From Candidatus Bathyarchaeia archaeon (GTDB lineage: Archaea > Thermoproteota > Bathyarchaeia > Bathyarchaeales > Bathycorpusculaceae): DNA of 64,000 bases. The notes under the pieces were generated by a model. The model searched no databases. It was not told the DNA's origin and saw nothing but the letters and a program-made list of their open reading frames with translations. The stretch spans positions 1 through 64,000 of the forward strand of contig JBEKTQ010000016.1 in the NCBI GenBank assembly GCA_049515895.1, read 5' to 3'. The first letter of the stretch is position 1, and every line of letters begins with the position of its first letter. The position numbers and the translations under genes are program-made. This document shows, one piece after another, positions 48,179-64,000 of the stretch.

Positions 48179-48629
48179 CCACCTCAGGCTTCAAACCAGG
48201 GATTTTCTCCATGTACCGACGTTGAAAGCGGCGCCAAACCAGAAACAAAGCAAAAACCAATTCGGAAGCACCAATTAAACTAAATGCAATCGTCAACCAG
48301 ACGGTACGTTGACCAGAAACTAAAGCATCTTGCTGGGCACCTTGAGCGGAATTCGTCACGGATTGCGCAATTGGGAGTACGCTGTCTGCTTGGACCACGG
48401 CTGTATTGGAATCGCCAGCTTGATAAGAGTTTTCAGCTTGCGCCAAATCACCTGCAGCAACATTTAACTGAACCAGTAAACTAGTAACATTTGCGCCAGC
48501 TTTTTCGGCTTCCAAAACCGCTTTGAAAGCTTGCTCGACAGCGCTGTTGGCAGCTTGCAGTTTCGACCCCGTTTGGTCAGTTTGAGCAAAAGCAAAGTGC
48601 CCGCCATAAAGGTAAGAGCTAAACGCCAA
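48162..48629 (-). CDS. Helical protein with C-terminal TM anchor; the reading frame extends upstream through a signal-like segment
   Basis: AFKAVLEAEKAGANVTSL; C-terminal TM followed by WRRFQRRY. Confidence 0.75.
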   Translation of the reverse strand: MAFSSYLYGGHFAFAQTDQTGSKLQAANSAVEQAFKAVLEAEKAGANVTSLLVQLNVAAGDLAQAENSYQAGDSNTAVVQADSVLPIAQSVTNSAQGAQQDALVSGQRTVWLTIAFSLIGASELVFALFLVWRRFQRRYMEKIPGLKPEVDENKA

Positions 48630-53515: not shown

Positions 53516-53716
53516 CTACTAAATATGGCGGTCAATTAACCGAAGAAACTGCTTTTTGGAGTTTCATCTTGGACCAGATTGGATTGTTTGGCCCGAAGGT
53601 TTAACAGTTTACGCTGCAACTCTTGGGACTCACTCAAGAAAACAAACCATCCAACCAATATCGCCAGATAAACTGTGAAAAACAAGATTGAAAACAAGAA
53701 GCAAAGGATAAACAAG

Positions 53717-53791
53717 TGGGCCGAGCCGGATTTGAACCGGCGACCTTTCGATTATCAGTCGAACGCTCCAGCCGTGCTGAGCTACCGGCCC
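53717..53791 (-). tRNA. tRNA-Ile (GAU), intronless, CCA not encoded
   Basis: GGGCCGG...TTCGA-CTGATAA-TCGAA...GGTTCAAATCC...TCGGCCCA folds as a cloverleaf. Confidence 0.97.
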
Positions 53792-53819
53792 GCGCTTTTG
53801 GTAAAACAAGTTTAATATT

Positions 53820-53862
53820 ATGTTGCTTTATAAGAATTGCCGTAAATACTTTAAAGCAACAC
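53820..53862. promoter_or_regulatory. Back-to-back TATA promoters for tRNA-Ile (-) and the tRNA fragment (+)
   Basis: Inverted pair gttgctttataag / ctttaaagcaac, each about 35 nt upstream of a tRNA 5' end. Confidence 0.6.
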
Positions 53863-53888
53863 CATCTTTGTGTTGTCGGGTTAGGATT

Positions 53889-53908
53889 GGGCTCGTAGCC
53901 TAGCACGG
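53889..53908 (+). other. Orphan tRNA 5' fragment (Arg/Lys-like); candidate att site or split-tRNA piece
   Basis: GGGCTCGTAGCCTAGCACGG = acceptor strand, TA, D-stem and D-loop; no 3' part follows. Confidence 0.7.
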
Positions 53909-53964
53909 CATACAGTCAAAGTGGTGACGTCACCATCAAGTTTTCTCTTGGCTAAACACAACAC

Positions 53965-53981
53965 CCCTCTTTTTCTTTTTT
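53965..53981 (+). terminator. T-rich archaeal terminator-like tract
   Basis: ccctctttttctttttt about 60 nt after the tRNA fragment. Confidence 0.4.
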
Positions 53982-54011
53982 GGTCAGCTGCTCTATCTAC
54001 GTATTTCTTGT

Positions 54012-55262
54012 TTGCCAGGAGGCCTTTCTAAACTGAAGGGAAACAAGCCCGGCTTCAACGAGAGCGACGCCTTCAACCACGTTAATTTTATTCGTGTAGG
54101 TCCGGGAGAGTTTGAAGATCTCCTGCGAAGAATCAAAATGCTTGACGTCGCCGGGACAGTGAAGCCTGCAGACAAAGCATATGTTTCCCTCAATCCTGAC
54201 GTGTCAATTTGGCAGAGCAATGTTGGTCCTGGAAGCTGGAATCATTACCTGACAAACCTCATTTATTTTTCGAAATGCGTGAACCTGACTCCGTCAGAAT
54301 TGCTTAACCTCAAGGCCAGTGAGGATCCACAACACCGTTATTTTCCAGCTGAGCGATTGATTGAAACTTGGATCAAAATGGCAAGGCAGAAAGGCCTCCC
54401 TTCTTCCGTGATCTTCAACACTCTAAACGCGACCCGGAGTTTCTTCCTGCACAGTAGGGCGCCTTTGCTCAAGATAGTATTTGTTTACAAGCCTAAACCA
54501 AAGAGGATACTGAACGAGGACATACTGAGAAAATTCAGGGATGGCTTCAACTTTTACCTTAAAGTCCTGTTTGATTTTCTGATATCAGTCCCGGTGAGAG
54601 ACGGCCAATTCACCAGGTGCAAGTATTGCGGCGAAGAGTTATTTCCAAGATGGCGCCACATAACGACGTTCCCAAGAATTGAACCGTACAGTCCATTCAT
54701 AATCAAGCCACAGAAAGGCCATGATAGCGAGAGGTATCCTGACGGCCTAAGACAGGTTTGTTTCCTTACGAAAACATTGGCGAGTGAGTTGAACGCTCTG
54801 CGTGATTTGAAAGAAGCAATGTTGCAGCGGTCACTTACGCCGGACGAATATATATTTACTCATCAAATAAACCAGGCGGGAATTCTACATGTGACGCCAA
54901 TAACCAGGGAGACAATCGGAACTGTTTTCAGAACTAACAAGCGCAAAACTGGAGAGCAGATTAATCCTCAACTCCTGCGCACCTGGGTAAACAGCACTCT
55001 GGCGTCAAGAGGCATAGAGAAGCAATTGAGAGACATCTACCTTGGCCACACATGCGGGTACGAGATGGGCTACATTATGCAGTTGCTTCCTCAATGGCAG
55101 AGGACCTTCCGTAGAGCCAAGGCACTTGAAGCTCTGGATCTGATGGCCTCAGTGCACCGGCAAGAGAAGGCGCCAAAGCCTGAGTTGGCGCTTAGCAATC
55201 AAGAGTATGAGCTGCTGCGTAGCTTACTTAGGCGTTTCAAGGAGAGTGGAGCTGAGGTTTGA
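54012..55262 (+). CDS. Tyrosine recombinase/integrase with CxxC insertion
   Basis: ISVPVRDG (Arg I), CKYC, PQLLRTW (Arg II), IYLGH, YEMGY (Tyr). Confidence 0.8.
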   Translation: MPGGLSKLKGNKPGFNESDAFNHVNFIRVGPGEFEDLLRRIKMLDVAGTVKPADKAYVSLNPDVSIWQSNVGPGSWNHYLTNLIYFSKCVNLTPSELLNLKASEDPQHRYFPAERLIETWIKMARQKGLPSSVIFNTLNATRSFFLHSRAPLLKIVFVYKPKPKRILNEDILRKFRDGFNFYLKVLFDFLISVPVRDGQFTRCKYCGEELFPRWRHITTFPRIEPYSPFIIKPQKGHDSERYPDGLRQVCFLTKTLASELNALRDLKEAMLQRSLTPDEYIFTHQINQAGILHVTPITRETIGTVFRTNKRKTGEQINPQLLRTWVNSTLASRGIEKQLRDIYLGHTCGYEMGYIMQLLPQWQRTFRRAKALEALDLMASVHRQEKAPKPELALSNQEYELLRSLLRRFKESGAEV

Positions 55263-55419
55263 ACTACACAAGGATAAGAGCTTTCTTGTGTAGGGGCAAG
55301 AGAAACTTGACGCTCGAGGGATCCGTCGACGTCGACGCCGCGTTGGTTAGTTCATTTATTTTCAGCGAGGTCCCGCGAGCGTCACGGCCGCATAGAGGGA
55401 TCCAGGAGAGCGTCAGGAT

Positions 55420-55806
55420 ATGAGAGTCTGCAAATGCCCTGACTGTGGAAAGATCATTGTTGATAATCCACTGTGGAGGCCGAGCGGTTTCAAATGGGGC
55501 GTTGACTTCACCAGCTTCGAAAACTTTGAATTGATAGATTCTGAGTTGGCACGCAAACTTAAGCTGGACGGGCAATGGACTGAAGACGAACTCTACTTGT
55601 ACCGGCTCTCCAGGAACGGCAACGTTTCAAGAATGGCTAAGCTGGAGTACACCAAAGAAACGTTTCTGCTGCATGGCCTAACCGATTCGGCAGCTCACAA
55701 GAATCCTTTTCCAAAGAAGTTCCATTTTGAGAAGCTGAAGAAACAGCGTCAGCTTTTGGAGGAGAGGGCGCCATCCGTTACTGCCACGCACAAGGAGGTT
55801 CCTTGA
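55420..55806 (+). CDS. Hypothetical protein with N-terminal CxxC
   Basis: CKCPDCG; first gene of an operon with overlapping stop/start codons. Confidence 0.65.
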   Translation: MRVCKCPDCGKIIVDNPLWRPSGFKWGVDFTSFENFELIDSELARKLKLDGQWTEDELYLYRLSRNGNVSRMAKLEYTKETFLLHGLTDSAAHKNPFPKKFHFEKLKKQRQLLEERAPSVTATHKEVP

Positions 55807-56234
55807 TGGAGTACATAGTGGATCGACATCATAAGAACACTACCAAGGTGATCGGCAAGGCCTGCAAAATATGTCGACTCCCAATTCTTGAAGGGGATTA
55901 TGTCATTACTAAACATCGGGCCCGGATCTATCATAAAGCTTGTTTCGAGGCCATGTTCATTGAGGCCCGGAAGACGTCGTCTGAAAGGTGGAGGAAGAGT
56001 CATCCTGAAGAGTGCAGGAGAAGACAGAGGGAATGGCGCCAGCGTAACCCTGAAAAAGTTAGAGCTGCTCGCAAGAAGCATTATCAGGAACATCGTGAGG
56101 AGGAGAGAGCGGCTCGCAAGCGGCGTTATCAGCTGCATCCTTTCAAGGACTGGACGCCGGAAGAGAAAAAGAAACACTACGCTCAAATTATGAGTAGCCG
56201 AAGGAAACGCAGAATGGAGCTAGCCAAGGCATGA
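55803..56234 (+). CDS. Zn-finger (CxxC...HxxC) protein with basic helical repeats
   Basis: CKIC...YHKACF; WRKSHPE / WRQRNPEK / YQEHREE repeats. Confidence 0.7.
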   Translation: MMEYIVDRHHKNTTKVIGKACKICRLPILEGDYVITKHRARIYHKACFEAMFIEARKTSSERWRKSHPEECRRRQREWRQRNPEKVRAARKKHYQEHREEERAARKRRYQLHPFKDWTPEEKKKHYAQIMSSRRKRRMELAKA

Positions 56235-56434
56235 CGAAGAGAGAGCAGCTTCAAACCTCAATGGATAAGGTCCCGTTTTTCTGCTTGGTTGCCTTGGCCG
56301 TCATCACCGGGTACTCAGTCGTAAGCGTGATCAGCGTCCTGCTGAAGGTCTTCATAGTCGGGTACTGCGTGAGTGTAACCTCGCTGATCTTCGTAGCTTA
56401 CAAGTTCTACTTGCAGGAGAATGTCAAGAAATGA
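56231..56434 (+). CDS. Small 2-TM membrane protein
   Basis: 67 aa, hydrophobic, coupled to both neighbours by 4-nt overlaps. Confidence 0.65.
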   Translation: MTKREQLQTSMDKVPFFCLVALAVITGYSVVSVISVLLKVFIVGYCVSVTSLIFVAYKFYLQENVKK

Positions 56435-57285
56435 ACAGCGATATCCCCCAAAAAATGACGAGGCGAACCGTCAAAACAATCAGCAAAACCATGGAGCCAA
56501 AGGAGGTTTTTGAATTGATAGCCTCCAAAGAATACGAGTATTCCCCGGACCTGGCGCCAGAATACCACGTCCACGATCGAGCAGGAATGGCCCTGAGCTA
56601 CCTCACCTTTGGCCGCGTGACTGAGATCTTCGGAGGCCTTCAGTACCGGCGCATCTACGTTGCTGGACTCTGCTCGGACCCGCGGGATCCACACAACTGG
56701 AAAGAGGAAGTGATCGGCAAACATACCGGCCTAACGAGGGAGAACGTTCAGGTCGACGAGAATTTTCTGCAGATTGTCACGATGCCGATAGTGAAGAGGA
56801 GCGAGAGAATCAAAGCGAAATATGGCCAGGAGATAGCTCAAAGGAGTGCGCTAAGATTCCCCTTGAAATGCGGCCTCTACAACAATGCTTTCTATGATCA
56901 GCTGGTCCCGTTTGCCTGGTTAGTTCTTGAGTACCTGGAGCGTTATGCTCCTGCAGCTGGGAAGCTCTTCCACTACCAGGATGCGCGCGCCTGGTTCATC
57001 ATCAAGGAAGTAACAGGCCAATTTCCCAACTGGTTTAGGGCCCAGTCAGACCGGTTCTACAAGCAGTGTCTGTACCGCGGGGATCCCATTGGTTATGCCA
57101 TCTTCGCCGGGAGAGTGAAGTCCGACAACACGATGAGCTATCAGCGGTTCAGCTGGAATGCTGACCTCAAGGATCCCACTATGATCATGGACTTCAAGTG
57201 GATAGAGCCGGCAGTGGAGCAGGTCAAGGGCAGGATCCGGGAGGCTAAGCAGCTGCAGCAGGACGCCTTGGCTACACGTCTTTAA
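56431..57285 (+). CDS. Divergent, catalytic-domain-only tyrosine recombinase
   Basis: DRAGMALSYLTFGRVTE (box I); FPNWFRAQ and FAGRVKSDNTMSY (box II). Confidence 0.7.
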   Translation: MNSDIPQKMTRRTVKTISKTMEPKEVFELIASKEYEYSPDLAPEYHVHDRAGMALSYLTFGRVTEIFGGLQYRRIYVAGLCSDPRDPHNWKEEVIGKHTGLTRENVQVDENFLQIVTMPIVKRSERIKAKYGQEIAQRSALRFPLKCGLYNNAFYDQLVPFAWLVLEYLERYAPAAGKLFHYQDARAWFIIKEVTGQFPNWFRAQSDRFYKQCLYRGDPIGYAIFAGRVKSDNTMSYQRFSWNADLKDPTMIMDFKWIEPAVEQVKGRIREAKQLQQDALATRL

Positions 57286-57476
57286 GGCCTCGTGGGATAG
57301 GTCTGGACTGCGGTATAGGTGCCACGTGGCATGTGTCGACCACTCAGGGGGGCCGGTGCCGTCAAAGCGCCTGACGTGCGATTGTTTATTTATTTACCGC
57401 TACCACTACTACTAGAAGGATTTTCAGAGAAAGCAAACGACACGGCCTCATCAAGGGATGGTCGATGTATGGTGAA

Positions 57477-57502
57477 GTGACTTTACGAGCTGCTAAAGTC
57501 AC
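57477..57502. other. Recombinase-core-like site: 9-bp inverted arms around an 8-bp asymmetric spacer
   Basis: GTGACTTTA-CGAGCTGC-TAAAGTCAC. Confidence 0.5.
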
Positions 57503-57536
57503 GTTATTTATTTTCCCCAGCTGCCAAAAAAGTTTT

Positions 57537-57558
57537 CGAGTTTCCACGTGGAAACTCG
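57537..57558. repeat. Perfect 22-bp palindrome
   Basis: CGAGTTTCCAC|GTGGAAACTCG. Confidence 0.95.
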
Positions 57559-57574
57559 GTATTGAAGATCCAGT

Positions 57575-58048
57575 TTAGTGTTTTGGTTTGGGTGACTTGA
57601 GTCTATATCCCGCTTTGAGTAGGTCGTCCGGGGATTGACTCATCTTCTTAGCCTCTTCAAGCAACACGTTTCTTTCCAGAAATTCTACGGCCTTCTGTCT
57701 CACTTCTTGCTCATCATAATCTGGAAAAAGTTGATGAATTATCTCATGAAAAATATCGAGGGTTGCTTCAAGCAACGTATCACAATCTGGCGATCCTGCT
57801 ATAATATCGTCGTCCCAAAAATGATATCTTGACCATCTTATCTCATGACCGCGCTTGTCTGTATGCGCGTTTGCTTCATTGTGTTTGCACATGTTGCATC
57901 GGCAACCAGAGATAGTTAACTCGCAGAGTTTGTCGAGCTGCTCATCTGCTAGTCCCTCTCTTGGTACCAAGCTTTTGGCGAGATCCAGAATAAGCTCAAA
58001 GAATCTCTTTTGTGAAATCATTTTTGTTATCGTTCCTGAGTCTTTCAA
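57575..58048 (-). CDS. Small HEXXH zinc metallopeptidase-like protein
   Basis: FHEIIHQLFPDYDEQEV; Cys cluster CRCNMCKH. Confidence 0.65.
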   Translation of the reverse strand: MKDSGTITKMISQKRFFELILDLAKSLVPREGLADEQLDKLCELTISGCRCNMCKHNEANAHTDKRGHEIRWSRYHFWDDDIIAGSPDCDTLLEATLDIFHEIIHQLFPDYDEQEVRQKAVEFLERNVLLEEAKKMSQSPDDLLKAGYRLKSPKPKH

Positions 58049-58131
58049 GCTTGTTACTATTTACGTATCAGTGAAAATTTAAGATTAATCCAAGAAGGAA
58101 GCGGCAAACTTCAACGAAAAAGGCTAGGGTG

Positions 58132-59193
58132 TCAGGCTAATCTTTTGTCGACGCGGATCTTCTTTAGGATCTCCCGGGCGCCCTTGTCAGCTCTCACTCT
58201 AAGATCCGCCACTAAAGCCAAGTTGAAGTAGTTACTCATGAAAACATTGCTTGAAATTCTACCGTGTAAGAAGTCGATTTCTTCGCGTTTGAGCCACTGA
58301 TTCATGAACGTTGCGTGTTGTTCTCTGACGTCGGAATACCTTACTGGGATCCCTTTCTTGATTAATCGACGCTGGACCGCATATGTGCTTGCGAACGGAG
58401 TCTTCTGAGCGATAGTGTCGATCAGTTGTTTTGGTGCGTAGCTGATGAATGCCTTCTTGGTGTTCCGGATGAAGATTTTCTTGAAGCGGAAGTGTTCCAG
58501 CATTCCGGATTCAGGATTGTAATATTGTTTCTCGAGGGTCCCTTCTTTGGCCAGTTGAATGATAAGATTGTAACTGTGAAAAGCTTCACTTAACCTCAAT
58601 CCGGTAACCCCAATGTAATCGAGGAATTCGGTGAGGTCTGGACGAACAGTTTTAGCTTGGATAACCCAGTTGAATATTTCCTCAGGATTCTTGATTTTTG
58701 TCATGCGGTCGATTATGATGTCGTCGATGTTGCGGCCTGTCCAGCTGAGGCCGTAGGCCCTGACCAGGGAACGGAAGTCATCGTAGCATCCGAGAAACTT
58801 TGATAGTGCGCTGAGTGCTTTCAACGGGTTAGGGCGGATCGTGACTGGCAGCTTTCCGATTTCTGAAAGGTCCTTTGAGAAGAGGCAGTTCTTGAAGAAC
58901 ATCGCTTGGACAACCATTTGCCGCGAATTATGTTCGGTGTGGTTTTTTAGGAGCCAAGCTTTGAACTCCTGCCAGTCGACTTCTTTGGATAATGGGATTG
59001 AGGATAACGTCGAGTATTTTCCGGTGAGCTTGTCGATTTTCTCCTGGAGCGCGATCTCGCAGCATTTTGATATGTTGATGCTGAGCTCGTGGGCCTTGTC
59101 CACGAGTGCTCTGTTGACGCTCAAGGTTACTCTTTTGATTTTCAGTTTTGGGATTGCCTTGGTTATTATCCTTGTTTCTTGATCGGATGACAT
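58132..59193 (-). CDS. SSV1-type integrase-like protein fused to an N-terminal CcdA/RHH domain
   Basis: RVTLSVNRALVDKAHELSINISKCCEIALQE (CcdA-like); TGLRLSEA, RNTKKAF, DVREQHATFM, IDFLHGR, VFMSNY. Confidence 0.8.
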   Translation of the reverse strand: MSSDQETRIITKAIPKLKIKRVTLSVNRALVDKAHELSINISKCCEIALQEKIDKLTGKYSTLSSIPLSKEVDWQEFKAWLLKNHTEHNSRQMVVQAMFFKNCLFSKDLSEIGKLPVTIRPNPLKALSALSKFLGCYDDFRSLVRAYGLSWTGRNIDDIIIDRMTKIKNPEEIFNWVIQAKTVRPDLTEFLDYIGVTGLRLSEAFHSYNLIIQLAKEGTLEKQYYNPESGMLEHFRFKKIFIRNTKKAFISYAPKQLIDTIAQKTPFASTYAVQRRLIKKGIPVRYSDVREQHATFMNQWLKREEIDFLHGRISSNVFMSNYFNLALVADLRVRADKGAREILKKIRVDKRLA

Positions 59194-59271
59194 GATTGTT
59201 TTCCTCGTTGTTTACGTAGGATTTTTTTGACTAAAAAAGGGGAAGTGTTGAATGTTGACTCTGCAACTACT

Positions 59272-59640
59272 CTAGTTTGAAGTTAACTCTGCTGCAGGAG
59301 CTTCCCGGATCTCTCGCCTGATTGCTTCGGAACTGTTGATTATCAGAAGAGCTCCAGTGCCGTTCTCGTAGGGAAAGAATTCCAGTCGGTCTTTGTTGCT
59401 TGTCCACTCTGCGAGTTTCGGCAGGTCCTGAGGTAGGATCCTGGCCATTATGTGAGCTTCGAAACTCTTTCCCCACTTCAAGCCTGGACTGAAGATGTCT
59501 TTGTGCTGCATGTCGGTTACTTCTTTCTCGAGGAACTGGTCCGTCAGCTGCTCAACGCTCAGGTTGAATTTCTCTGCGAATTGTTGGAGTTCTTTATAGA
59601 GGTCCTGTCGGACCGGGATTGAAAACGGTTTTTGTTCCAT
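59272..59640 (-). CDS. RHH-like DNA-binding protein with C-terminal domain (start ATG 59640)
   Basis: MEQKPFSIPVRQDLYKELQQFAEKFNLSVEQLTDQFL; GGTGA upstream of the ATG. Confidence 0.7.
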   Translation of the reverse strand: MEQKPFSIPVRQDLYKELQQFAEKFNLSVEQLTDQFLEKEVTDMQHKDIFSPGLKWGKSFEAHIMARILPQDLPKLAEWTSNKDRLEFFPYENGTGALLIINSSEAIRREIREAPAAELTSN

Positions 59641-59655
59641 GTTTCCTTTCACCTT

Positions 59656-59675
59656 TAGATACTTATAGGTATCTA
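59656..59675. promoter_or_regulatory. Operator-like palindrome between divergent RHH genes
   Basis: TAGATACTTATAGGTATCTA; TATA-like tttatat and tttaaata nearby. Confidence 0.6.
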
Positions 59676-59728
59676 CCAGTACCTTTATATTCACAAGTAT
59701 TTAAATATACTCATAGGTGCATAGAAAT

Positions 59729-59878
59729 ATGGCTAAGAATATGAAAAGATTTATGATGTCAGTTTCAGATGAAATGCATGCAGAGCTCGAGAAAGAAAGG
59801 AAGGAAAGGCGCTTGGAAACAGTCCAGGAAGTAACACGGCAAATAGTCGCTGACTACCTCAGAAAGAAGGAACAGTAA
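59729..59878 (+). CDS. 49-aa CopG/RHH regulator (below the ORF-track cutoff)
   Basis: MAKNMKRFMMSVSDEMHAELEKERKERRLETVQEVTRQIVADYLRKKEQ. Confidence 0.8.
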   Translation: MAKNMKRFMMSVSDEMHAELEKERKERRLETVQEVTRQIVADYLRKKEQ

Positions 59879-59937
59879 TTTAGCGCTCAACAGATTCTCG
59901 TTCAACTTCCTTGGAACAACTGAAGTAGGATTGCAAT

Positions 59938-60531
59938 ATGCGCAGACTAATGATTTATTACAAAGCCTTGTCTGCTGGGCTATCAATGTTTATTTTTACA
60001 TTGATTGGAGGGTTCACATTTGGTTCAATTATCCATGAGGCAGGTCACGCCATTGTAGGAATGGCCGTTGGATTCAGAATCAAGTCATGGTCCATTGCCG
60101 GGGTGGTTTTCGCTTCCTATATGCCCAATGGACCGGCAAAACTACTAACATTGTTGGCGGGAGGATCCGCAGAAGCGTTGAGCGCTTCGTCCGCTTTTCT
60201 CTTTGTCCGCTATCTTGCTCGATATGTCTTCAGAAAAAACGAGATCATAAAAGTACGATCGATCGATGCTGGAATGAACCGAGGTTTGTCTAACTTTCAA
60301 CTTCAATTCTTGCCATTTATCCTCTTTGGAATTGAGGTTGCCTTTTTGTCGTTTATATTTCATGGAGTCGTCGCAGGAATCTGGGAAGGATTATTCAACA
60401 GCAGTTATGTTGCTTTCAGTGGTGAACCTGTTCTCGAGGTGTTTGCGGTTGCTGTATTTTTGTGGATGGCCTTCGAAATACTGTACAGTCGACAAAACAA
60501 ATATCTGAAAAGTTTAGCCTTCGTGGATTAA
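59938..60531 (+). CDS. Membrane HEXXH protein, M50/site-2 protease-like
   Basis: IIHEAGHAI within a TM, LAGG motif, about 4 TMs. Confidence 0.7.
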   Translation: MRRLMIYYKALSAGLSMFIFTLIGGFTFGSIIHEAGHAIVGMAVGFRIKSWSIAGVVFASYMPNGPAKLLTLLAGGSAEALSASSAFLFVRYLARYVFRKNEIIKVRSIDAGMNRGLSNFQLQFLPFILFGIEVAFLSFIFHGVVAGIWEGLFNSSYVAFSGEPVLEVFAVAVFLWMAFEILYSRQNKYLKSLAFVD

Positions 60532-60954
60532 TTAGGTTAACGCGGCAAAAGGTTCCTCGAGTAACCTCAGAGTTTTTTAGAAATTTGCCTGGGTTACCGA
60601 CTTCAAAACTTAGTAGTGTTTCCCAGTTTCGTTTATGCTTGGATTCCACGTTGATGTCGTTGAGATTATTTGGTCCACATTGGCAACTCACATTCATCCA
60701 CTCATTTGCTCCGTGTGAATTTGTAATGTCCCTGTCAAAAATCCCAGTGTAACTATAGAAGATTGCTAAGTTTTACGCAACCTATACGTACACACCCTCA
60801 AATTCCGTGGACTATTTTTCCATGAAAACTGAATCCCTCGTAAGATAGTCCATGAAGAATGTTGAAAACTGCAGAGGATTATCGAACGGCAGCAACAATA
60901 AATTACGACAACTCGCCTTCAAAAGCAGAATTCCAAGCCTTTTCACCTGGGAAT

Positions 60955-61260
60955 TTAGGATGGCAGATCCGGGAGAGACGGGGGAATATCAAGTTTCCAT
61001 CCTTCTCTCTGTTTCTGCTTAATCGTTTCCAATACCTCAGGTTGACTAACTGCGAAGCAGACATGCGCGCAGCTGCCACCGCTTCCAGGAAAAACAGGTG
61101 CCTCGAGACGCAAAAGACTGCTTGTTTTCGTCAGTGTAGTGTGGTCACAGAGACTGCAGAAGATTCCTCTCGGGGTGATCTGGACGTCGACGGGTCCTAA
61201 CTTGTCGTCCATTACTTTAACGACTAAACTCAAGCTTTTCTTCGCTGAGTGTTTCTTCAA
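60955..61260 (-). CDS. Small Zn-binding protein (CxxC...CxH)
   Basis: VQITPRGIFCSLCD...CAHVCFAVSQPEV. Confidence 0.6.
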   Translation of the reverse strand: MKKHSAKKSLSLVVKVMDDKLGPVDVQITPRGIFCSLCDHTTLTKTSSLLRLEAPVFPGSGGSCAHVCFAVSQPEVLETIKQKQREGWKLDIPPSLPDLPS

Positions 61261-61322
61261 CGATGTGCAGCTCCTCTGTCATATTGATAGATTTATGTAT
61301 AAAAGTTCTTGCAGAGCTGTCG

Positions 61323-62570
61323 CTACCGCCTTCTGCCCCCGAACACAAGCGCGATCAAAACGACGAGTAGCCAGGGCGCGAAGATGATAACCAGGATGAG
61401 AAGGCCGATGGTTGTGAGGATCCCGATGTTGACGGGGTTACTTAGCCAGGTGACGAGTCCGCTCAGGATCGTGTCTGTAGTTGTTTCTGGCGCAAACCTT
61501 CCAAATTGACTATTATCATTTTGGATGTTCTGAACCGTGTATTGGCCAATTACGAAAACTGTAACGTCAAAGTCAAAGGTAGCGACGTCGCCATGAGTAA
61601 CTGAACTTGTACCCAAATTCGTTGAGTCTGCGTAGCTTCCAAAATGGCTAAGGTCAATCGCGAAGTAAGTTGTGTTTAGGAAGTATTCTGGATTCAGTAC
61701 GTGTCCCTCATAGGTTTCAGGTACAACTTTGGGTATGTCTGTTGACCCAAACGGACTGTAATGCAGGTAGACAGTGGATTGCGCGGATTCAGGGTTTGTG
61801 CTTTCGTAGCTTCCGCCAATGGGAAGAGAAACCACGCTGCCGCTGCTGGTTCGCGCGTTAAACATCGCATTGTCGTCTAGCTGGATCGATGCGATCGCAA
61901 AATATGCTGTTCCGCCACCTTGAATATACCAACTTGGAGTTGTGTCAACCTTGAACCAGATCCACAGGTCGTTATACATGTTTTCGACATGTGTGATAAT
62001 CGGCCACTGAAGATAAATTGCTGGATTCTGTGCTGCGGTTGGCCATTCAGCGCTGAATGAAACATAGTATTTCATTTCGTATTGGGACATCGCAATCATT
62101 AGGGGGGTTCCGCTGCTGTCTGTCACGTTCCAATTGTAAGTTGCATCGGGGTTTGTTCCGGTCCACCCTGGAGCATAATTAAACAGATCATCATTCTGTA
62201 TCCAGGAAGTGGGGATAGATATTCCTGTAACGCCTGGAAAGCTCATGTGGGCTACTGACTGTGTGGGTTCAAAGACGCTTGTCATTTCTGCTTCGACTGT
62301 AGGTACTTTGATGGGGAATGCTGCAGTTGGGTTTATCACGTTTGGACTGTAGCTTAAGGTTGTTGTGGGGTTGAAGTAGGTTTTTCCGTTGTATTGTTCG
62401 CCATAGATGCTTATGTTTGGGGTAAATGCAGTTGGGTAACCGTCGCTGGAAACGACGGAAAGAGGTTGGAGATGGCTACTTCCCGGTGACAACGTTAGTG
62501 CGAGAGCGAAAATTCCAATTATGATGAAGATACCGTACATTCTGCCTTGGTTGGCTTTTGCTTTGTTCAT
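61323..62570 (-). CDS. Membrane-anchored exported protein, candidate virion spike/structural protein
   Basis: N-terminal signal/TM, about 340-aa beta-rich S/T/Y/N ectodomain, long C-terminal hydrophobic anchor ending GGRRR. Confidence 0.7.
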   Translation of the reverse strand: MNKAKANQGRMYGIFIIIGIFALALTLSPGSSHLQPLSVVSSDGYPTAFTPNISIYGEQYNGKTYFNPTTTLSYSPNVINPTAAFPIKVPTVEAEMTSVFEPTQSVAHMSFPGVTGISIPTSWIQNDDLFNYAPGWTGTNPDATYNWNVTDSSGTPLMIAMSQYEMKYYVSFSAEWPTAAQNPAIYLQWPIITHVENMYNDLWIWFKVDTTPSWYIQGGGTAYFAIASIQLDDNAMFNARTSSGSVVSLPIGGSYESTNPESAQSTVYLHYSPFGSTDIPKVVPETYEGHVLNPEYFLNTTYFAIDLSHFGSYADSTNLGTSSVTHGDVATFDFDVTVFVIGQYTVQNIQNDNSQFGRFAPETTTDTILSGLVTWLSNPVNIGILTTIGLLILVIIFAPWLLVVLIALVFGGRRR

Positions 62571-62647
62571 CTTATTCCTCTTGTTTTTCTTTGGTTTACT
62601 TCGTACCTGTGACTTTGGATGCTGCTACTTACGCTAAGACCGCTCGA

Positions 62648-62863
62648 TCATCCGGGACTCTTGAGATGTAGCGCGTGCTGGAGATCTGTCCGGATGATCT
62701 CGAGGCTTCTAATGACGTCTTCGATCGGTGTTTCTTCTGAGTAGAATACTACAGCTGCGCGGCCGGTGACTGCTGTAAGTTTGGGGCCAAGGACCTTGTA
62801 GATTCCCTTTGGGATGTAGGCCAGATGCTGCTCGGGATTTACTTTGACTGTGAACTCGGCCAA
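62648..62863 (-). CDS. Small AbrB/SpoVT-like protein
   Basis: FTVKVNPEQHLAYIPK..YKVLG swapped-hairpin-like pattern. Confidence 0.6.
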   Translation of the reverse strand: MAEFTVKVNPEQHLAYIPKGIYKVLGPKLTAVTGRAAVVFYSEETPIEDVIRSLEIIRTDLQHALHLKSPG

Positions 62864-62970
62864 TCTGATTCCTCACTTAAGAAAATATTAAGGTTAATGA
62901 GAATTTAATTATTGAAACGAGAAACCTGAAAATTTCGAGTTGGAAGGTTCAAAAGCGAAACAAAGAAGTG

Positions 62971-63837
62971 TTAAGTCATACCAATTTCGCTGCATTTGTG
63001 GTCGACGTCGAGATTTGGGAAGGACCCGCATCTTATTATCTTACGGCATTCCGGACAAAAAGCGTGTATCGCCTCTCCGTTTCTTGTGAGCTCCAGGTAC
63101 TTTGTCAGAACGTCTCCACTTAGCTGATTTAGAAACCTGGACTCAATATTGAATTTGAAGTACTGGAATACTACTCTTTGATCTTTTTCGCAAAGCCCCT
63201 TATACTTCCTCTCAATGAGTTCGTTCATAGCTTTTCTTTCGCTGCTTTCTTCAGAGTTGCGCGCCAGGTGTGTATTGAAATCTATAAGGATGGTTTTGCC
63301 GAATGCTTCTGGGTCAAAGGTGCCTTTAGCTAGACCGTCAAACAGTTGACGAAGGAAGTTTTCACCCATCAAAAAATGGAAGGTTGTTGAGTCTGTTGTC
63401 TCCTTCAGTATGCTCAATGAGAATTTCCAAATAGGGTTATCTTGTTGTGGCAGCGAGTCAAACGCTCGAGAGATCAAGTAAGGCCTACTCAGCAGTGCTC
63501 CAGCTAAGATCTGACCTTGGAAAGTCAATGAGTACATCAACTTGTCTGGGACGGGTCCCCTTTCGCTCTTAACAGTTCCCGTTACTTCAACAAACCCTTT
63601 TTTCTCAAGCTTACTGATTAATGGATAGACGATGGAAGACGACAGCTGCGTTAACTGGTCTGTCCTACGCATGATTTGATTCCTCGACAGAGGCTTGTTT
63701 TCATTAACCATCTTCGTGAGAATGCGGCCAAGATTGCCTACCGTTTTCTTGTCGATTCTTTCTCCAAAAATTTGGGTGAGATGTTTCTGCAGAAACCTTG
63801 TGTTGCCGTTCCTTTGTTGCGTTTTTGAAGCCTCCAT
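62971..63837 (-). CDS. wHTH regulator with C-terminal Zn finger
   Basis: IVYPLISKLEKKGFVE...YSLTFQG; CPEC...C...HKC. Confidence 0.75.
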   Translation of the reverse strand: MEASKTQQRNGNTRFLQKHLTQIFGERIDKKTVGNLGRILTKMVNENKPLSRNQIMRRTDQLTQLSSSIVYPLISKLEKKGFVEVTGTVKSERGPVPDKLMYSLTFQGQILAGALLSRPYLISRAFDSLPQQDNPIWKFSLSILKETTDSTTFHFLMGENFLRQLFDGLAKGTFDPEAFGKTILIDFNTHLARNSEESSERKAMNELIERKYKGLCEKDQRVVFQYFKFNIESRFLNQLSGDVLTKYLELTRNGEAIHAFCPECRKIIRCGSFPNLDVDHKCSEIGMT

Positions 63838-63853
63838 TTCGAAATTTTCGAAA
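63837..63853. promoter_or_regulatory. Operator-like palindrome touching the wHTH start codon
   Basis: TTTCGAAA-T-TTTCGAAA. Confidence 0.55.
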
Positions 63854-63915
63854 CTTTCAGTTAAACCGTTAAGTTCTCTATGAGTATTTAAGACTATCTA
63901 ACAGAGGTTAGACAC

Positions 63916-64000
63916 TTGGAAAACAATTACGACCAAAAAATCATCCAGTTCTTAGAAACCGCGGAAAACCCCATGGACATAGAGAAGATCCGAATCGAAG
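63916..64000 (+). CDS. Partial small wHTH-like protein, divergent from 62971-63837
   Basis: TTG-ENNYDQKIIQFLETAENPMDIEKIRIE, open to the window end; GAGGT upstream. Confidence 0.55.
   Translation, partial: MENNYDQKIIQFLETAENPMDIEKIRIE

What the first reader, a model, noticed from the sequence alone, without database searches (positions are those of the whole stretch)
53889..64000. Integrated element with three different tyrosine recombinases
Seen within about 5 kb: a border integrase with a CxxC insert (54012), a catalytic-domain-only recombinase ending a 4-gene operon (56431), and a CcdA/RHH-fused SSV1-type enzyme (58132). All keep both arginines and a C-terminal tyrosine, and all replace the box II His (Q, N, S/D). 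One integrase is enough for integration. Inference: either division of labour (integration, resolution or replication, inversion) or nested elements. This may be a new Bathyarchaeia virus or plasmid type.
Basis: partly seen in the sequence, partly recalled or inferred. Interest (0 to 1): 0.75.

Follow-up and report, generated by a model that had tools for sequence, protein, structure and literature searches.

The report
Four-recombinase integrating element in Bathyarchaeia
A 16-kb mobile element inserted in the front end of an archaeal tRNA gene carries four very different DNA-recombinase genes, of which one (just outside the window) likely does the inserting, one sits beside a conserved lox-like site and likely untangles doubled copies of the element, and two are intact extras whose jobs are only guessed.

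Summary
The three genes are real. 54012 (YR1) and 56431 (YR2) have tyrosine-recombinase folds in predicted structures; 58132 (YR3) matches the SSV-type Pfam family. All three are under purifying selection.

The element is larger than the window: 16.1 kb (contig 53889-69986), bounded by a 20-bp repeat of the 5' end of tRNA-Arg(TCG). It carries ParB, a P4/D5 helicase and a fourth recombinase (YR4, 68506). No capsid gene was recognised.

YR4 is the likely integrase: its homologues directly precede a tRNA 5' end in 29 of 30 loci. YR2 lacks a core-binding domain, and its family is flanked by an 11-7/8-11 inverted repeat (27 of 52 loci; 0.8 expected), so it is likely a lox-like resolvase. YR3 is a suicidal-type integrase whose clade lacks the internal att segment. 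YR1 is an att-adjacent extra.

None of 8 other complete elements carries all three genes, but pairs recur in synteny (YR2+YR3 once, YR1+YR4 twice). Modular accretion with partial division of labour fits better than nested insertions. No activity was shown. New variant of a known kind.

The parts
53716..53791 (-). Host tRNA-Ile(GAT), flank, not part of the element
   Evidence: lies 88-98 bp from tRNA-Arg(TCG) in 11 of 30 genus loci (empty site) and 97 bp from attL here
53889..53908 (+). Left att: first 20 nt of tRNA-Arg(TCG)
   Evidence: exact repeat at contig 69967-69986
53922..53982 (+). Palindrome (53922-53935) and oligo-T tract inside attL; likely accessory part of the YR4 attP and terminator for the orphaned host tRNA promoter (inferred)
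   Evidence: similar sequence in tRNA-Arg elements with and without YR1
54012..55262 (+). YR1: two-domain tyrosine recombinase with CxxC insert (R196, K235, Q320, R323, H346, Y354); accessory, substrate not found
   Evidence: dN/dS 0.14 vs G038
55420..56434 (+). Three small overlapping ORFs (Zn-finger-like 128 aa, RING-like/basic 143 aa, membrane 67 aa) preceding YR2
   Evidence: the last two precede YR2 also in G453 and L089
56431..57285 (+). YR2: catalytic-domain-only tyrosine recombinase (R62, K122, N200, R203, Y237); predicted resolvase
   Evidence: dN/dS 0.067 vs L089
57380..57515 (+). Conserved non-coding module with core inverted repeat 57475-57504 (11-bp arms, 8-bp spacer); predicted YR2 site
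   Evidence: aligned in own, G453, L090, L091 with a variable spacer; related module upstream of YR2 in L121; family statistic
57537..57558 (.). Perfect 22-bp palindrome with a parS-like 16-bp core; second copy of the core at contig 64969-64984 inside parB
   Evidence: only two copies in 3.18 Mb, 0.0007 expected
57575..58048 (-). Variable cargo ORF (157 aa) between the site and YR3
   Evidence: replaced by another gene in G453
58132..59193 (-). YR3: intact CcdA/RHH-fused SSV-type recombinase (R200, K246/K247, R290, R312, Y322) lacking the tRNA-derived att segment
   Evidence: dN/dS 0.074 vs G453
59272..60531 (.). Two small RHH-like regulators (59272-, 59717+) and a 197-aa membrane ORF with a weak M50B-like hit
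   Evidence: weak, below cut-offs
60955..62863 (-). 101-aa ORF, 415-aa membrane-anchored protein of an unnamed family (92 representatives), 71-aa ORF
   Evidence: same order in G453; homologue in virus-like contig L098
62971..63837 (-). wHTH (PadR-like) regulator, 288 aa
   Evidence: below cut-off
63916..64000 (+). Start of the right arm, which runs past the window end. In contig C16 numbering (continues the window's; locus L001 = C16:52000-71999): 73-aa ORF 63916-64137; ParB-like gene 64481-65887; P4/D5-type helicase 65890-67719; YR4, Zn-ribbon + tyrosine integrase (R266, K292, Y371xxR374, E397, Y406), 68506-69903, likely the integrase; right att and restored tRNA-Arg(TCG) 69967-70043
   Evidence: PF02195, PF17762, PF00589 above cut-off; TIGR01613 183 bits, cut-off 108.7

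Best explanation
This is a 16.1-kb plasmid-like element with no recognised capsid gene, inserted in the 5' end of tRNA-Arg(TCG), that has gathered four very different tyrosine recombinases as swappable modules, of which YR4 likely integrates and excises it, YR2 likely resolves dimers of the circular form at its adjacent lox-like site, and YR1 and YR3 are intact accessory enzymes that likely act on sites not yet found. Shown: the boundaries, the empty site in relatives, the gene content, the folds of YR1 and YR2, purifying selection on all four, YR4's link to tRNA 5' ends, YR2's link to an 11-7/8-11 inverted repeat, and the missing att segment in YR3's clade. Inferred: YR4 recombines the 20-bp att and leaves the tRNA under an element-supplied promoter. 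The excised circle replicates with the P4/D5 helicase, is partitioned by ParB at two parS-like sites, and is kept monomeric by YR2. Guessed: YR3 is a suicidal integrase that lost its att and can no longer be split, perhaps reused to move cargo next to it. YR1, which lies just downstream of attP, may be a second recombinase or an excision helper.
For: 20-bp direct repeat 16.1 kb apart. Empty site in 11 of 30 genus loci, and contigs of related organisms join across the element in runs X3 and X4. YR4 homologues end 30-177 bp before a same-strand tRNA 5' end in 29 of 30 best loci, including own; the 30th ends at a contig edge. In five of 8 other complete elements YR4 was the only recombinase detected. 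YR2 family: inverted repeat within 300 bp in 27 of 52 loci vs 0.8 by shuffling; 0 of 8 YR1, 0 of 7 YR3, 0 of 12 YR4 loci. The spacer varies while the arms are kept, and there is mobile-element DNA on both sides in own, G453 and L091. In the genus the module was found with a strong match only in own and G453, the two genomes with this YR2 clade. YR3: 27 of 38 full-length homologues carry a tRNA-derived peptide in the linker, whereas the five-member clade of YR3 has a 24-aa linker without it; relatives in the same genome are split at tRNAs. G453:C6 has the same backbone with YR2 (76%) and YR3 (88%) at tRNA-His. YR1 lies directly inside attL in own, G038 and G450. dN/dS 0.07-0.14 for the pairs with measurable dS.
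Against: No activity is shown: no attP junction, dimer or inversion joint in Logan contigs of 5 runs, and depth is flat across the element in X1 (contigs drop rare forms). The window's own core is divergent: a matrix built without own and G453 scores it under 10 bits while 124 other genome positions score 10 or more. It lies downstream of YR2, between convergent genes, and is also called terminator-like; in most relatives the repeat is upstream, near the promoter. The repeat criteria were set after seeing the data, and many loci are close kin. YR2 lacks both catalytic His and a core-binding domain. No site was found for YR1 or YR3. No ParA was recognised and no primase domain is evident on the helicase. 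All four genes together were seen only here. Full-length YR1 also occurs away from tRNA att sites (G471, two IMG/VR contigs).
Confidence: 0.6

Rival explanations
1. The extra recombinase-fold proteins are DNA-binding regulators, as the integrase-fold repressors MrpR and SroF of SPbeta-like phages are. The inverted repeat is an operator in relatives and a terminator here.
For: Both His positions are replaced in YR2. The repeat usually lies 35-50 bp before the start codon. It is called terminator-like here. MrpR and SroF appear among the fold matches at Z 8.5-10.3; their repressor role is from search listings and abstract starts only.
Against: Arg, Lys, Arg and Tyr are invariant in 47 of 47 YR2 and 52 of 52 YR1 sequences. 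The 11-bp arms with a variable 7-8-bp spacer resemble dif geometry (11-6-11 per PMC8371274). The site stays linked to YR2 when it moves downstream.
Confidence: 0.15
2. Nested or tandem independent elements: each recombinase marks a separate insertion, and the cluster is an accident of a hot spot.
For: All three genes co-occur in 0 of 8 other complete elements. The genome holds many other recombinase elements. Chimeric nesting is known in Thaumarchaeota (PMC6563490 passages).
Against: Only one att pair. The other direct repeats of 12 bp or more are the parS-like pair and nine 12-13-mers, none tRNA-like. YR3 has no internal att. YR2, YR3 and six other genes keep their order in a relative at a different tRNA. 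All genes are intact and under purifying selection.
Confidence: 0.1
3. YR2 is a second integrase and its site is an attP for a dif-like or intergenic chromosomal target, used when the YR4 tRNA target is missing.
For: In 18 of 31 YR2 loci with enough upstream DNA the gene follows a B251-like ATPase of spindle-shaped viruses (4 of the 18 seeded the profile) and no second recombinase was detected there. Huangdivirus has a 627-bp recombinase gene next to such an ATPase and is described as a provirus (PMC10848311 passages and Table S4 rows). Distant 197-226-aa YR2-like genes lie near one of two 20-23-bp direct repeats (L078, L080, L081).
Against: In the loci read gene by gene (own, G453, L091, L094, L098, L106, L115) the site is whole and internal, not split at a host junction. 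No clearly matching empty site stood out in the own genome.
Confidence: 0.1
4. The element is a defective provirus or a satellite of spindle-shaped Bathyarchaeia viruses, and its recombinases and membrane protein are leftovers or tools of that lifestyle (compatible with the best explanation on YR4).
For: YR2 and the 415-aa membrane protein occur together with a B251-like ATPase in L098.
Against: No ATPase of that profile in the element. No capsid hit in PHROGs, Pfam or NCBIfam. No IMG/VR relative of YR2, YR3 or the membrane protein with the patterns used. ParB, parS-like sites and helicase are plasmid-like.
Confidence: 0.2

Closest known systems
Cryptic integrated elements (CIE) of Thaumarchaeota (PMC6563490, passages read)
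   Same: tRNA-integrated, about 17 kb median size, integrase plus MGE-type helicase, no virion or conjugation genes; one known case uses the 5' part of a tRNA
   Different: Four recombinases; 5'-end targeting is the rule for the YR4 family (29 of 30 loci); ParB with parS-like sites
pNOB8-type (type II) archaeal integrases (PMC8371274 section 8; PMC7253208 passages)
   Same: YR4 has R...YxxR...Y and is not split by its att
   Different: Extra N-terminal Zn ribbon; box III His replaced by Glu in the tRNA-Arg(TCG) clade; targets the first 20 nt of the tRNA
SSV/pTN3/pT26-2 suicidal integrases (PF16795; PMC8371274 sections 8, 9, 18; PMC7253208 passages)
   Same: YR3 has PF16795, box III Arg (LHGR), and relatives split at tRNA att sites
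   Different: No att inside the gene, intact within an integrated element, no KxxR motif, N-terminal CcdA-like RHH
Cre/loxP of P1, XerA/dif and gene-linked XerS/difSL (PMC8371274 passages; PMC2731167 abstract start; Cre details recalled)
   Same: One recombinase linked to one core site of two inverted arms around a short spacer
   Different: YR2 has no core-binding domain, NxxR instead of HxxR, a 7-8-bp spacer, and about 80 bp of conserved flank in this clade; activity untested
Huangdivirus of Bathyarchaeia (PMC10848311 passages and Table S4 rows)
   Same: Short recombinase next to a B251-like ATPase, as for many YR2 relatives; another Bathyarchaeia virus contig in that table has two adjacent integrase genes
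   Different: This element has no such ATPase or VP1-3; homology of YR2 to Huangdivirus_16 was not tested (sequence not fetched)
RIT elements and Tn554 (PMC3414803 passages)
   Same: Several tyrosine recombinases in one element
   Different: RIT has three adjacent overlapping genes in about 3.5 kb; here the four are dispersed, on both strands and independently swapped

Membership tests
Tyrosine recombinase superfamily (YR1, YR2) | Catalytic-domain fold | tested here: met
   predicted models match XerA, XerH, Cre and lambda Int as top hits
Tyrosine recombinase superfamily (all four) | Conserved R...R...Y with catalytic Lys | tested here: met
Tyrosine recombinase superfamily (all four) | Canonical HxxR | tested here: not met
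   Q, N, S and Y at that position; Y is the known pNOB8-type variant
Tyrosine recombinase superfamily (all four) | Phosphotyrosine cleavage and strand exchange | not testable with these tools
   needs biochemistry
Cryptic integrated element | att direct repeats, integrase, empty site in relatives | tested here: met
Cryptic integrated element | No recognisable virion or conjugation genes | tested here: met
   the 415-aa membrane protein remains unassigned
pNOB8-type integrase (YR4) | R...YxxR...Y and att outside the gene | tested here: met
pNOB8-type integrase (YR4) | Placement in the XerA/XerC/pNOB8 sequence family | not tested
   no tree or network built; NCBIfam XerA hit far below cut-off
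SSV-type suicidal integrase (YR3) | PF16795 domain | tested here: met
   30.5 bits, cut-off 27
SSV-type suicidal integrase (YR3) | attP inside the gene, split on integration | tested here: not met
   no tRNA match over 14 nt in the gene; control C4 gene gives 43 of 43 nt
SSV-type suicidal integrase (YR3) | KxxR motif | tested here: not met
   S 22, A 14, G 7, K 2 of 46
Cre/lox- or Xer/dif-like resolvase module (YR2) | Linked core site with inverted arms and a short variable spacer | tested here: met
   27 of 52 loci vs 0.8 expected; own site is divergent
Cre/lox- or Xer/dif-like resolvase module (YR2) | N-terminal core-binding domain | tested here: not met
   one helix precedes the catalytic core in the model
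Cre/lox- or Xer/dif-like resolvase module (YR2) | Resolution of dimers | not testable with these tools
   needs assay
RIT element | Three adjacent, overlapping recombinase genes in about 3.5 kb | tested here: not met
Spindle-shaped provirus (Huangdiviridae/Fuselloviridae-like) | B251-like ATPase | tested here: not met
   local profile gave no hit in the element
Spindle-shaped provirus (Huangdiviridae/Fuselloviridae-like) | VP1/VP3-like capsid proteins | tested here: inconclusive
   no PHROGs hit, but such small hydrophobic proteins diverge beyond HMM reach
ParABS partition system | ParB plus parS-like palindromes | tested here: met
   consensus in PMC7383237 passage, similar but not identical
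ParABS partition system | ParA ATPase | tested here: not met
   none recognised among the element's ORFs

The most novel reading that the evidence does not exclude
Bathyarchaeia viruses and integrating plasmids share an undescribed archaeal Cre/lox analogue: a single-domain NxxR tyrosine recombinase (YR2) with its own 11-7/8-11 site. This element joins it with a tRNA-5'-end integrase and a suicidal integrase domesticated by loss of its att, giving one replicon separate enzymes for integration, resolution and cargo shuffling.
Probability: 0.4. Interest if true: 0.72.

Novelty: new variant of a known kind. Interest (0 to 1): 0.52.

Why it matters
The review read here lists three kinds of archaeal tyrosine recombinase (SSV-type and pNOB8-type integrases and chromosomal XerA); I saw no element-encoded resolvase with a defined site in the parts read. 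YR2 comes with dozens of natural enzyme-site pairs, so a compact recombinase lacking the core-binding domain and both catalytic histidines can be tested directly and might be a small genome-engineering tool. The att-less YR3 clade is a natural test of what becomes of suicidal integrases. The YR4 family shows that 5'-end tRNA integration, called rare in the papers read, is routine in this archaeal genus and puts a single-copy tRNA under element control.

Tried and rejected
Profile-profile and BLAST comparison among YR1, YR2 and YR3 found no significant similarity. The YR2 profile found nothing in PDB sequences, so folding was needed.

IMG/VR scans found nothing for YR2, YR3 or the 415-aa protein and two contigs for YR1; these are pattern-based and insensitive. 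YR2 has no Atlas result.

Rfam found only the two tRNAs. No RNA holder was listed. Laying contigs showed no circular junction or inversion, which is not evidence of absence; one 21-base-side joint in X4 was dismissed as foreign.

The idea that the palindrome inside attL is a YR1 site was rejected because elements lacking YR1 have it too. The idea that the YR2 site is one of the cassette repeats noted elsewhere in this genome found no support: no second strong copy. The genome-wide matrix scan was too noisy to name an attB for YR2.

Literature searches listed no description of this element family or of a YR2-type site. Most subscription papers and bioRxiv supplements were out of reach, and Table S1 of PMC8371274 was not read.


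Full report
Setting. The window is bases 1-64000 of contig C16 (96,733 bp) of genome G000, so contig numbers continue the window's. The host is inferred to be a Bathyarchaeia archaeon, because named relatives of the element's proteins are Bathyarchaeia; the runs that hold the DNA are peat and wetland metagenomes.

Boundaries. The 20 bases at 53889-53908 recur exactly at 69967-69986, where they begin an intact tRNA-Arg(TCG), the only TCG tRNA that ARAGORN found in the assembly. Among the 30 best tRNA-Arg loci returned from 61 genus genomes, 11 have tRNA-Ile 88-98 bp upstream, with an intergenic sequence like 53792-53888. The gap from tRNA-Ile to the left repeat here is 97 bp. Contigs of related organisms in runs X3 and X4 also join across the element. 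The element is therefore 16.1 kb and sits in the 5' end of the tRNA; the restored tRNA now follows element DNA whose last 40 or so bases are conserved among occupied loci. The papers read' targeting uncommon: one of 39 tRNA-targeting thaumarchaeal elements (PMC6563490 passages), and unique to pTN3-like enzymes in the review (PMC8371274 section 18).

Content. Beyond the window lie ParB, a P4/D5 helicase and a fourth recombinase, YR4 (68506-69903), ending 63 bp before the tRNA. A parS-like 16-bp palindrome occurs twice in the 3.18-Mb assembly, both times in the element (57540 and 64969; 0.0007 expected). It resembles but does not equal the consensus given in PMC7383237 (passage), and the G453 relative, which has no ParB hit, lacks its core. 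No capsid, packaging or conjugation gene was recognised.

The three flagged genes. YR1 (54012) folds as a two-domain recombinase, and its profile hits P. abyssi XerA at E 4.8e-5. YR2 (56431) has no meaningful Pfam, PHROGs or PDB sequence match, but its model aligns to the XerA catalytic domain at Z 13.1, and the top 28 VIA rows are recombinases, their integrase-fold repressor relatives, topoisomerases IB or protelomerases. YR3 (58132) has PF16795 and CcdA domains. Column counts: YR1 R196, K235, R323, H346, Y354 in 52 of 52, with His at 320 in 47 and Gln in 5; YR2 R62, K122, R203, Y237 in 47 of 47, with Asn200 in 45; YR3 R200 in 46 of 46 and R290, R312, Y322 in 45. The three share no detectable profile similarity. 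dN/dS is 0.14 (YR1), 0.067 (YR2 vs L089), 0.074 (YR3) and 0.115 (YR4); for two other YR2 pairs dS was saturated.

Which one integrates. Searching 120 genus genomes with YR4 gave 34 with a match at E <= 1e-30. Of the 30 loci returned, own included, 29 have a same-strand tRNA beginning 30-177 bp after the match: Arg-TCG 20, Arg-CCG 2, Pro 6, Asp 1. YR4 carries R...YxxR...Y, the pNOB8-type consensus (PMC8371274 section 8). I could see both ends of 8 other elements among the stretches fetched; others had only one end in view. In five (G453:C81, G353:C6, G476:C4, G427:C3, and G423:C5, where it is broken) YR4 was the only recombinase detected by six local profiles and by Pfam on 43 of 78 listed ORFs. 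Pfam misses YR1 and YR2, so further divergent recombinases cannot be excluded. YR4 is thus the likely integrase, and 54012 is not needed for integration at this site.

Co-occurrence. G038:C34 (21.7 kb, same tRNA, same 20-bp repeat) has YR4 (82%), YR1 (61%) in the same place, and a different third recombinase whose family hits PF00589 through a paralogue in G000. G450:C27 (13.4 kb, tRNA-Pro 5') has YR1 inside the left att and a 31% YR4 homologue. G453:C6 (14.1 kb, tRNA-His 5') lacks YR1 but keeps the order 55803-56231-YR2 (76%), then YR3 (88%), 59272, 60955, 61323, 62648, helicase and a 27% YR4 homologue. A 12.9-kb contig in run X1 also has YR2 and YR3 in this order; it is not counted separately. 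In the genus, full-length YR1 was found in 5 of 120 genomes and close YR2 in 3 of 120, own included. No internal att-like repeat delimits a nested unit.

YR2 and its site. Downstream of YR2 a stretch of about 130 bp is conserved in own, G453, L090 and L091. It contains two inverted arms whose spacer differs in every copy, and a related stretch lies upstream of a 40%-identical YR2 in L121. Across 52 de-duplicated YR2 loci scoring 150 bits or more, 27 have an inverted repeat with 11-bp arms, 7-8-bp spacer, TA next to the spacer and at most 2 mismatches within 300 bp, against 0.8 expected from shuffles. Seven of the 52 had no upstream DNA. Controls: 0 of 8 YR1, 0 of 7 YR3, 0 of 12 YR4 loci, and 1 of 18 weak YR2-like loci. 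The criteria were chosen, and many loci are kin. Archaeal and bacterial dif is 11-6-11 (PMC8371274 passage). Against: L090 and L091 miss the mismatch limit; the own site is not recovered by a matrix built without own and G453; and it lies between convergent genes with a T-rich tail. In the loci read gene by gene the site is single, whole and internal, which fits a resolution site better than an att. Most distant YR2 genes lie in virus-like contigs: 18 of 31 loci with at least 1.2 kb upstream have a B251-like ATPase there, 4 of them being the profile's seeds. Huangdivirus has a 627-bp recombinase gene beside such an ATPase (PMC10848311 Table S4 rows).

YR3. Relatives in this genome (C4, C2, C17) and in others begin at tRNA-derived repeats of 34-49 bp, as split suicidal integrases do. 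Of 38 full-length homologues aligned, 27 carry a tRNA-derived peptide in a linker of 32-70 residues. The five closest (77-89% identity, query included) have a 24-residue linker without it, and six others also lack the pattern. By the definition in PMC7253208 (passages) YR3 is therefore not a suicidal integrase, though it descends from that family. The cargo between YR3 and the YR2 site differs between own and G453, where it is bracketed by short repeats of the sequence that follows the YR3 stop. A role in moving cargo is a guess.

YR1. It starts 70-130 bp inside the left att in three elements, behind an oligo-T tract; in the circle it would follow YR4 and attP in tandem. The palindrome and T tract there are shared by elements lacking YR1. 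YR1 also occurs at a non-tRNA border (G471, and a remnant in G382) and in two IMG/VR contigs with phage-like genes, so it is a mobile module of its own. No substrate was found.

Activity. Logan contigs of five runs showed no attP junction, inversion or excess depth; X1 and X2 may be the source of this DNA. Contigs drop rare forms.

Comparison and verdict. The element meets the loose definition of a cryptic integrated element (PMC6563490 passages) and fails that of RIT (PMC3414803 passages). Elements with two recombinases are listed in Table S4 of PMC10848311 and in earlier unchecked notes of this scan, so several recombinases per element is not rare in this class. What seems undescribed in the searches run is the YR2 family with its cognate site, the att-less SSV-type clade, and routine 5'-end targeting by an unsplit integrase. 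PMC11529989 (passages) added no closer match. Verdict: new variant of a known kind; best explanation 0.6; interest 0.52.

Noticed in passing
window 54017-54035: YR1 may start at CTG 54033 behind an AGGAGG; G450 also has CTG there and a remnant on C22 has ATG.
   Followed up: partly
G000:C22:1543-1813 and 48187-48372: Deleted remnants of a related element: the start of YR1 joined to the end of the 55803 ORF, and a second 55803 fragment.
   Followed up: partly
G000:C4:113633-120306: 6.6-kb element at tRNA-Arg(TCT) with a split CcdA-fused SSV-type integrase, a second 195-aa recombinase-like ORF, and an 88-aa plus 299-aa membrane protein pair.
   Followed up: partly
G000:C14:76323-82227: Element with a YR2-like gene, a D5-type helicase and a YR4-like gene in the same order as here.
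   Followed up: partly
L002:2001-7691 (C16:74001-79691): Just past smc: a 410-aa ORF that looks like a rolling-circle Rep (motif recalled, no family hit) followed by cargo and another YR4-like integrase; a paralogue of the Rep-like ORF is on C35.
   Followed up: no
C16:70257-73761: scpB-, scpA- and smc-like genes (named from the look of the sequence, no family hit obtained) lie directly right of the tRNA; the parS-like sites of the element are near them.
   Followed up: no
L094, L098, L106, L115: Virus-like contigs with a B251-like ATPase, YR2 and many membrane proteins; possibly uncharted spindle-shaped Bathyarchaeia viruses, with no match in the IMG/VR scan.
   Followed up: partly
L078, L080, L081: Small elements of 4.5-6.4 kb bounded by 20-23-bp direct repeats with a 197-226-aa YR2-like gene as the only recombinase detected.
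   Followed up: no
L154, L187, L188: Two tRNA-Arg(TCG)-like copies about 0.9-1.1 kb apart in G414 and G426, possibly scars of earlier integrations.
   Followed up: no
L255, L267: tRNA-Arg(TCG) is 97 nt long behind YR4 in G383 and G410, suggesting an intron near the 5' end.
   Followed up: no
L239:12907-13815: A broken second YR4-like gene lies just outside the left att of the G453:C6 element, suggesting tandem use of the site.
   Followed up: no
L112:9939-11537: A YR4-like ORF overlaps a tRNA-Met-like sequence called by ARAGORN inside its 5' part.
   Followed up: no
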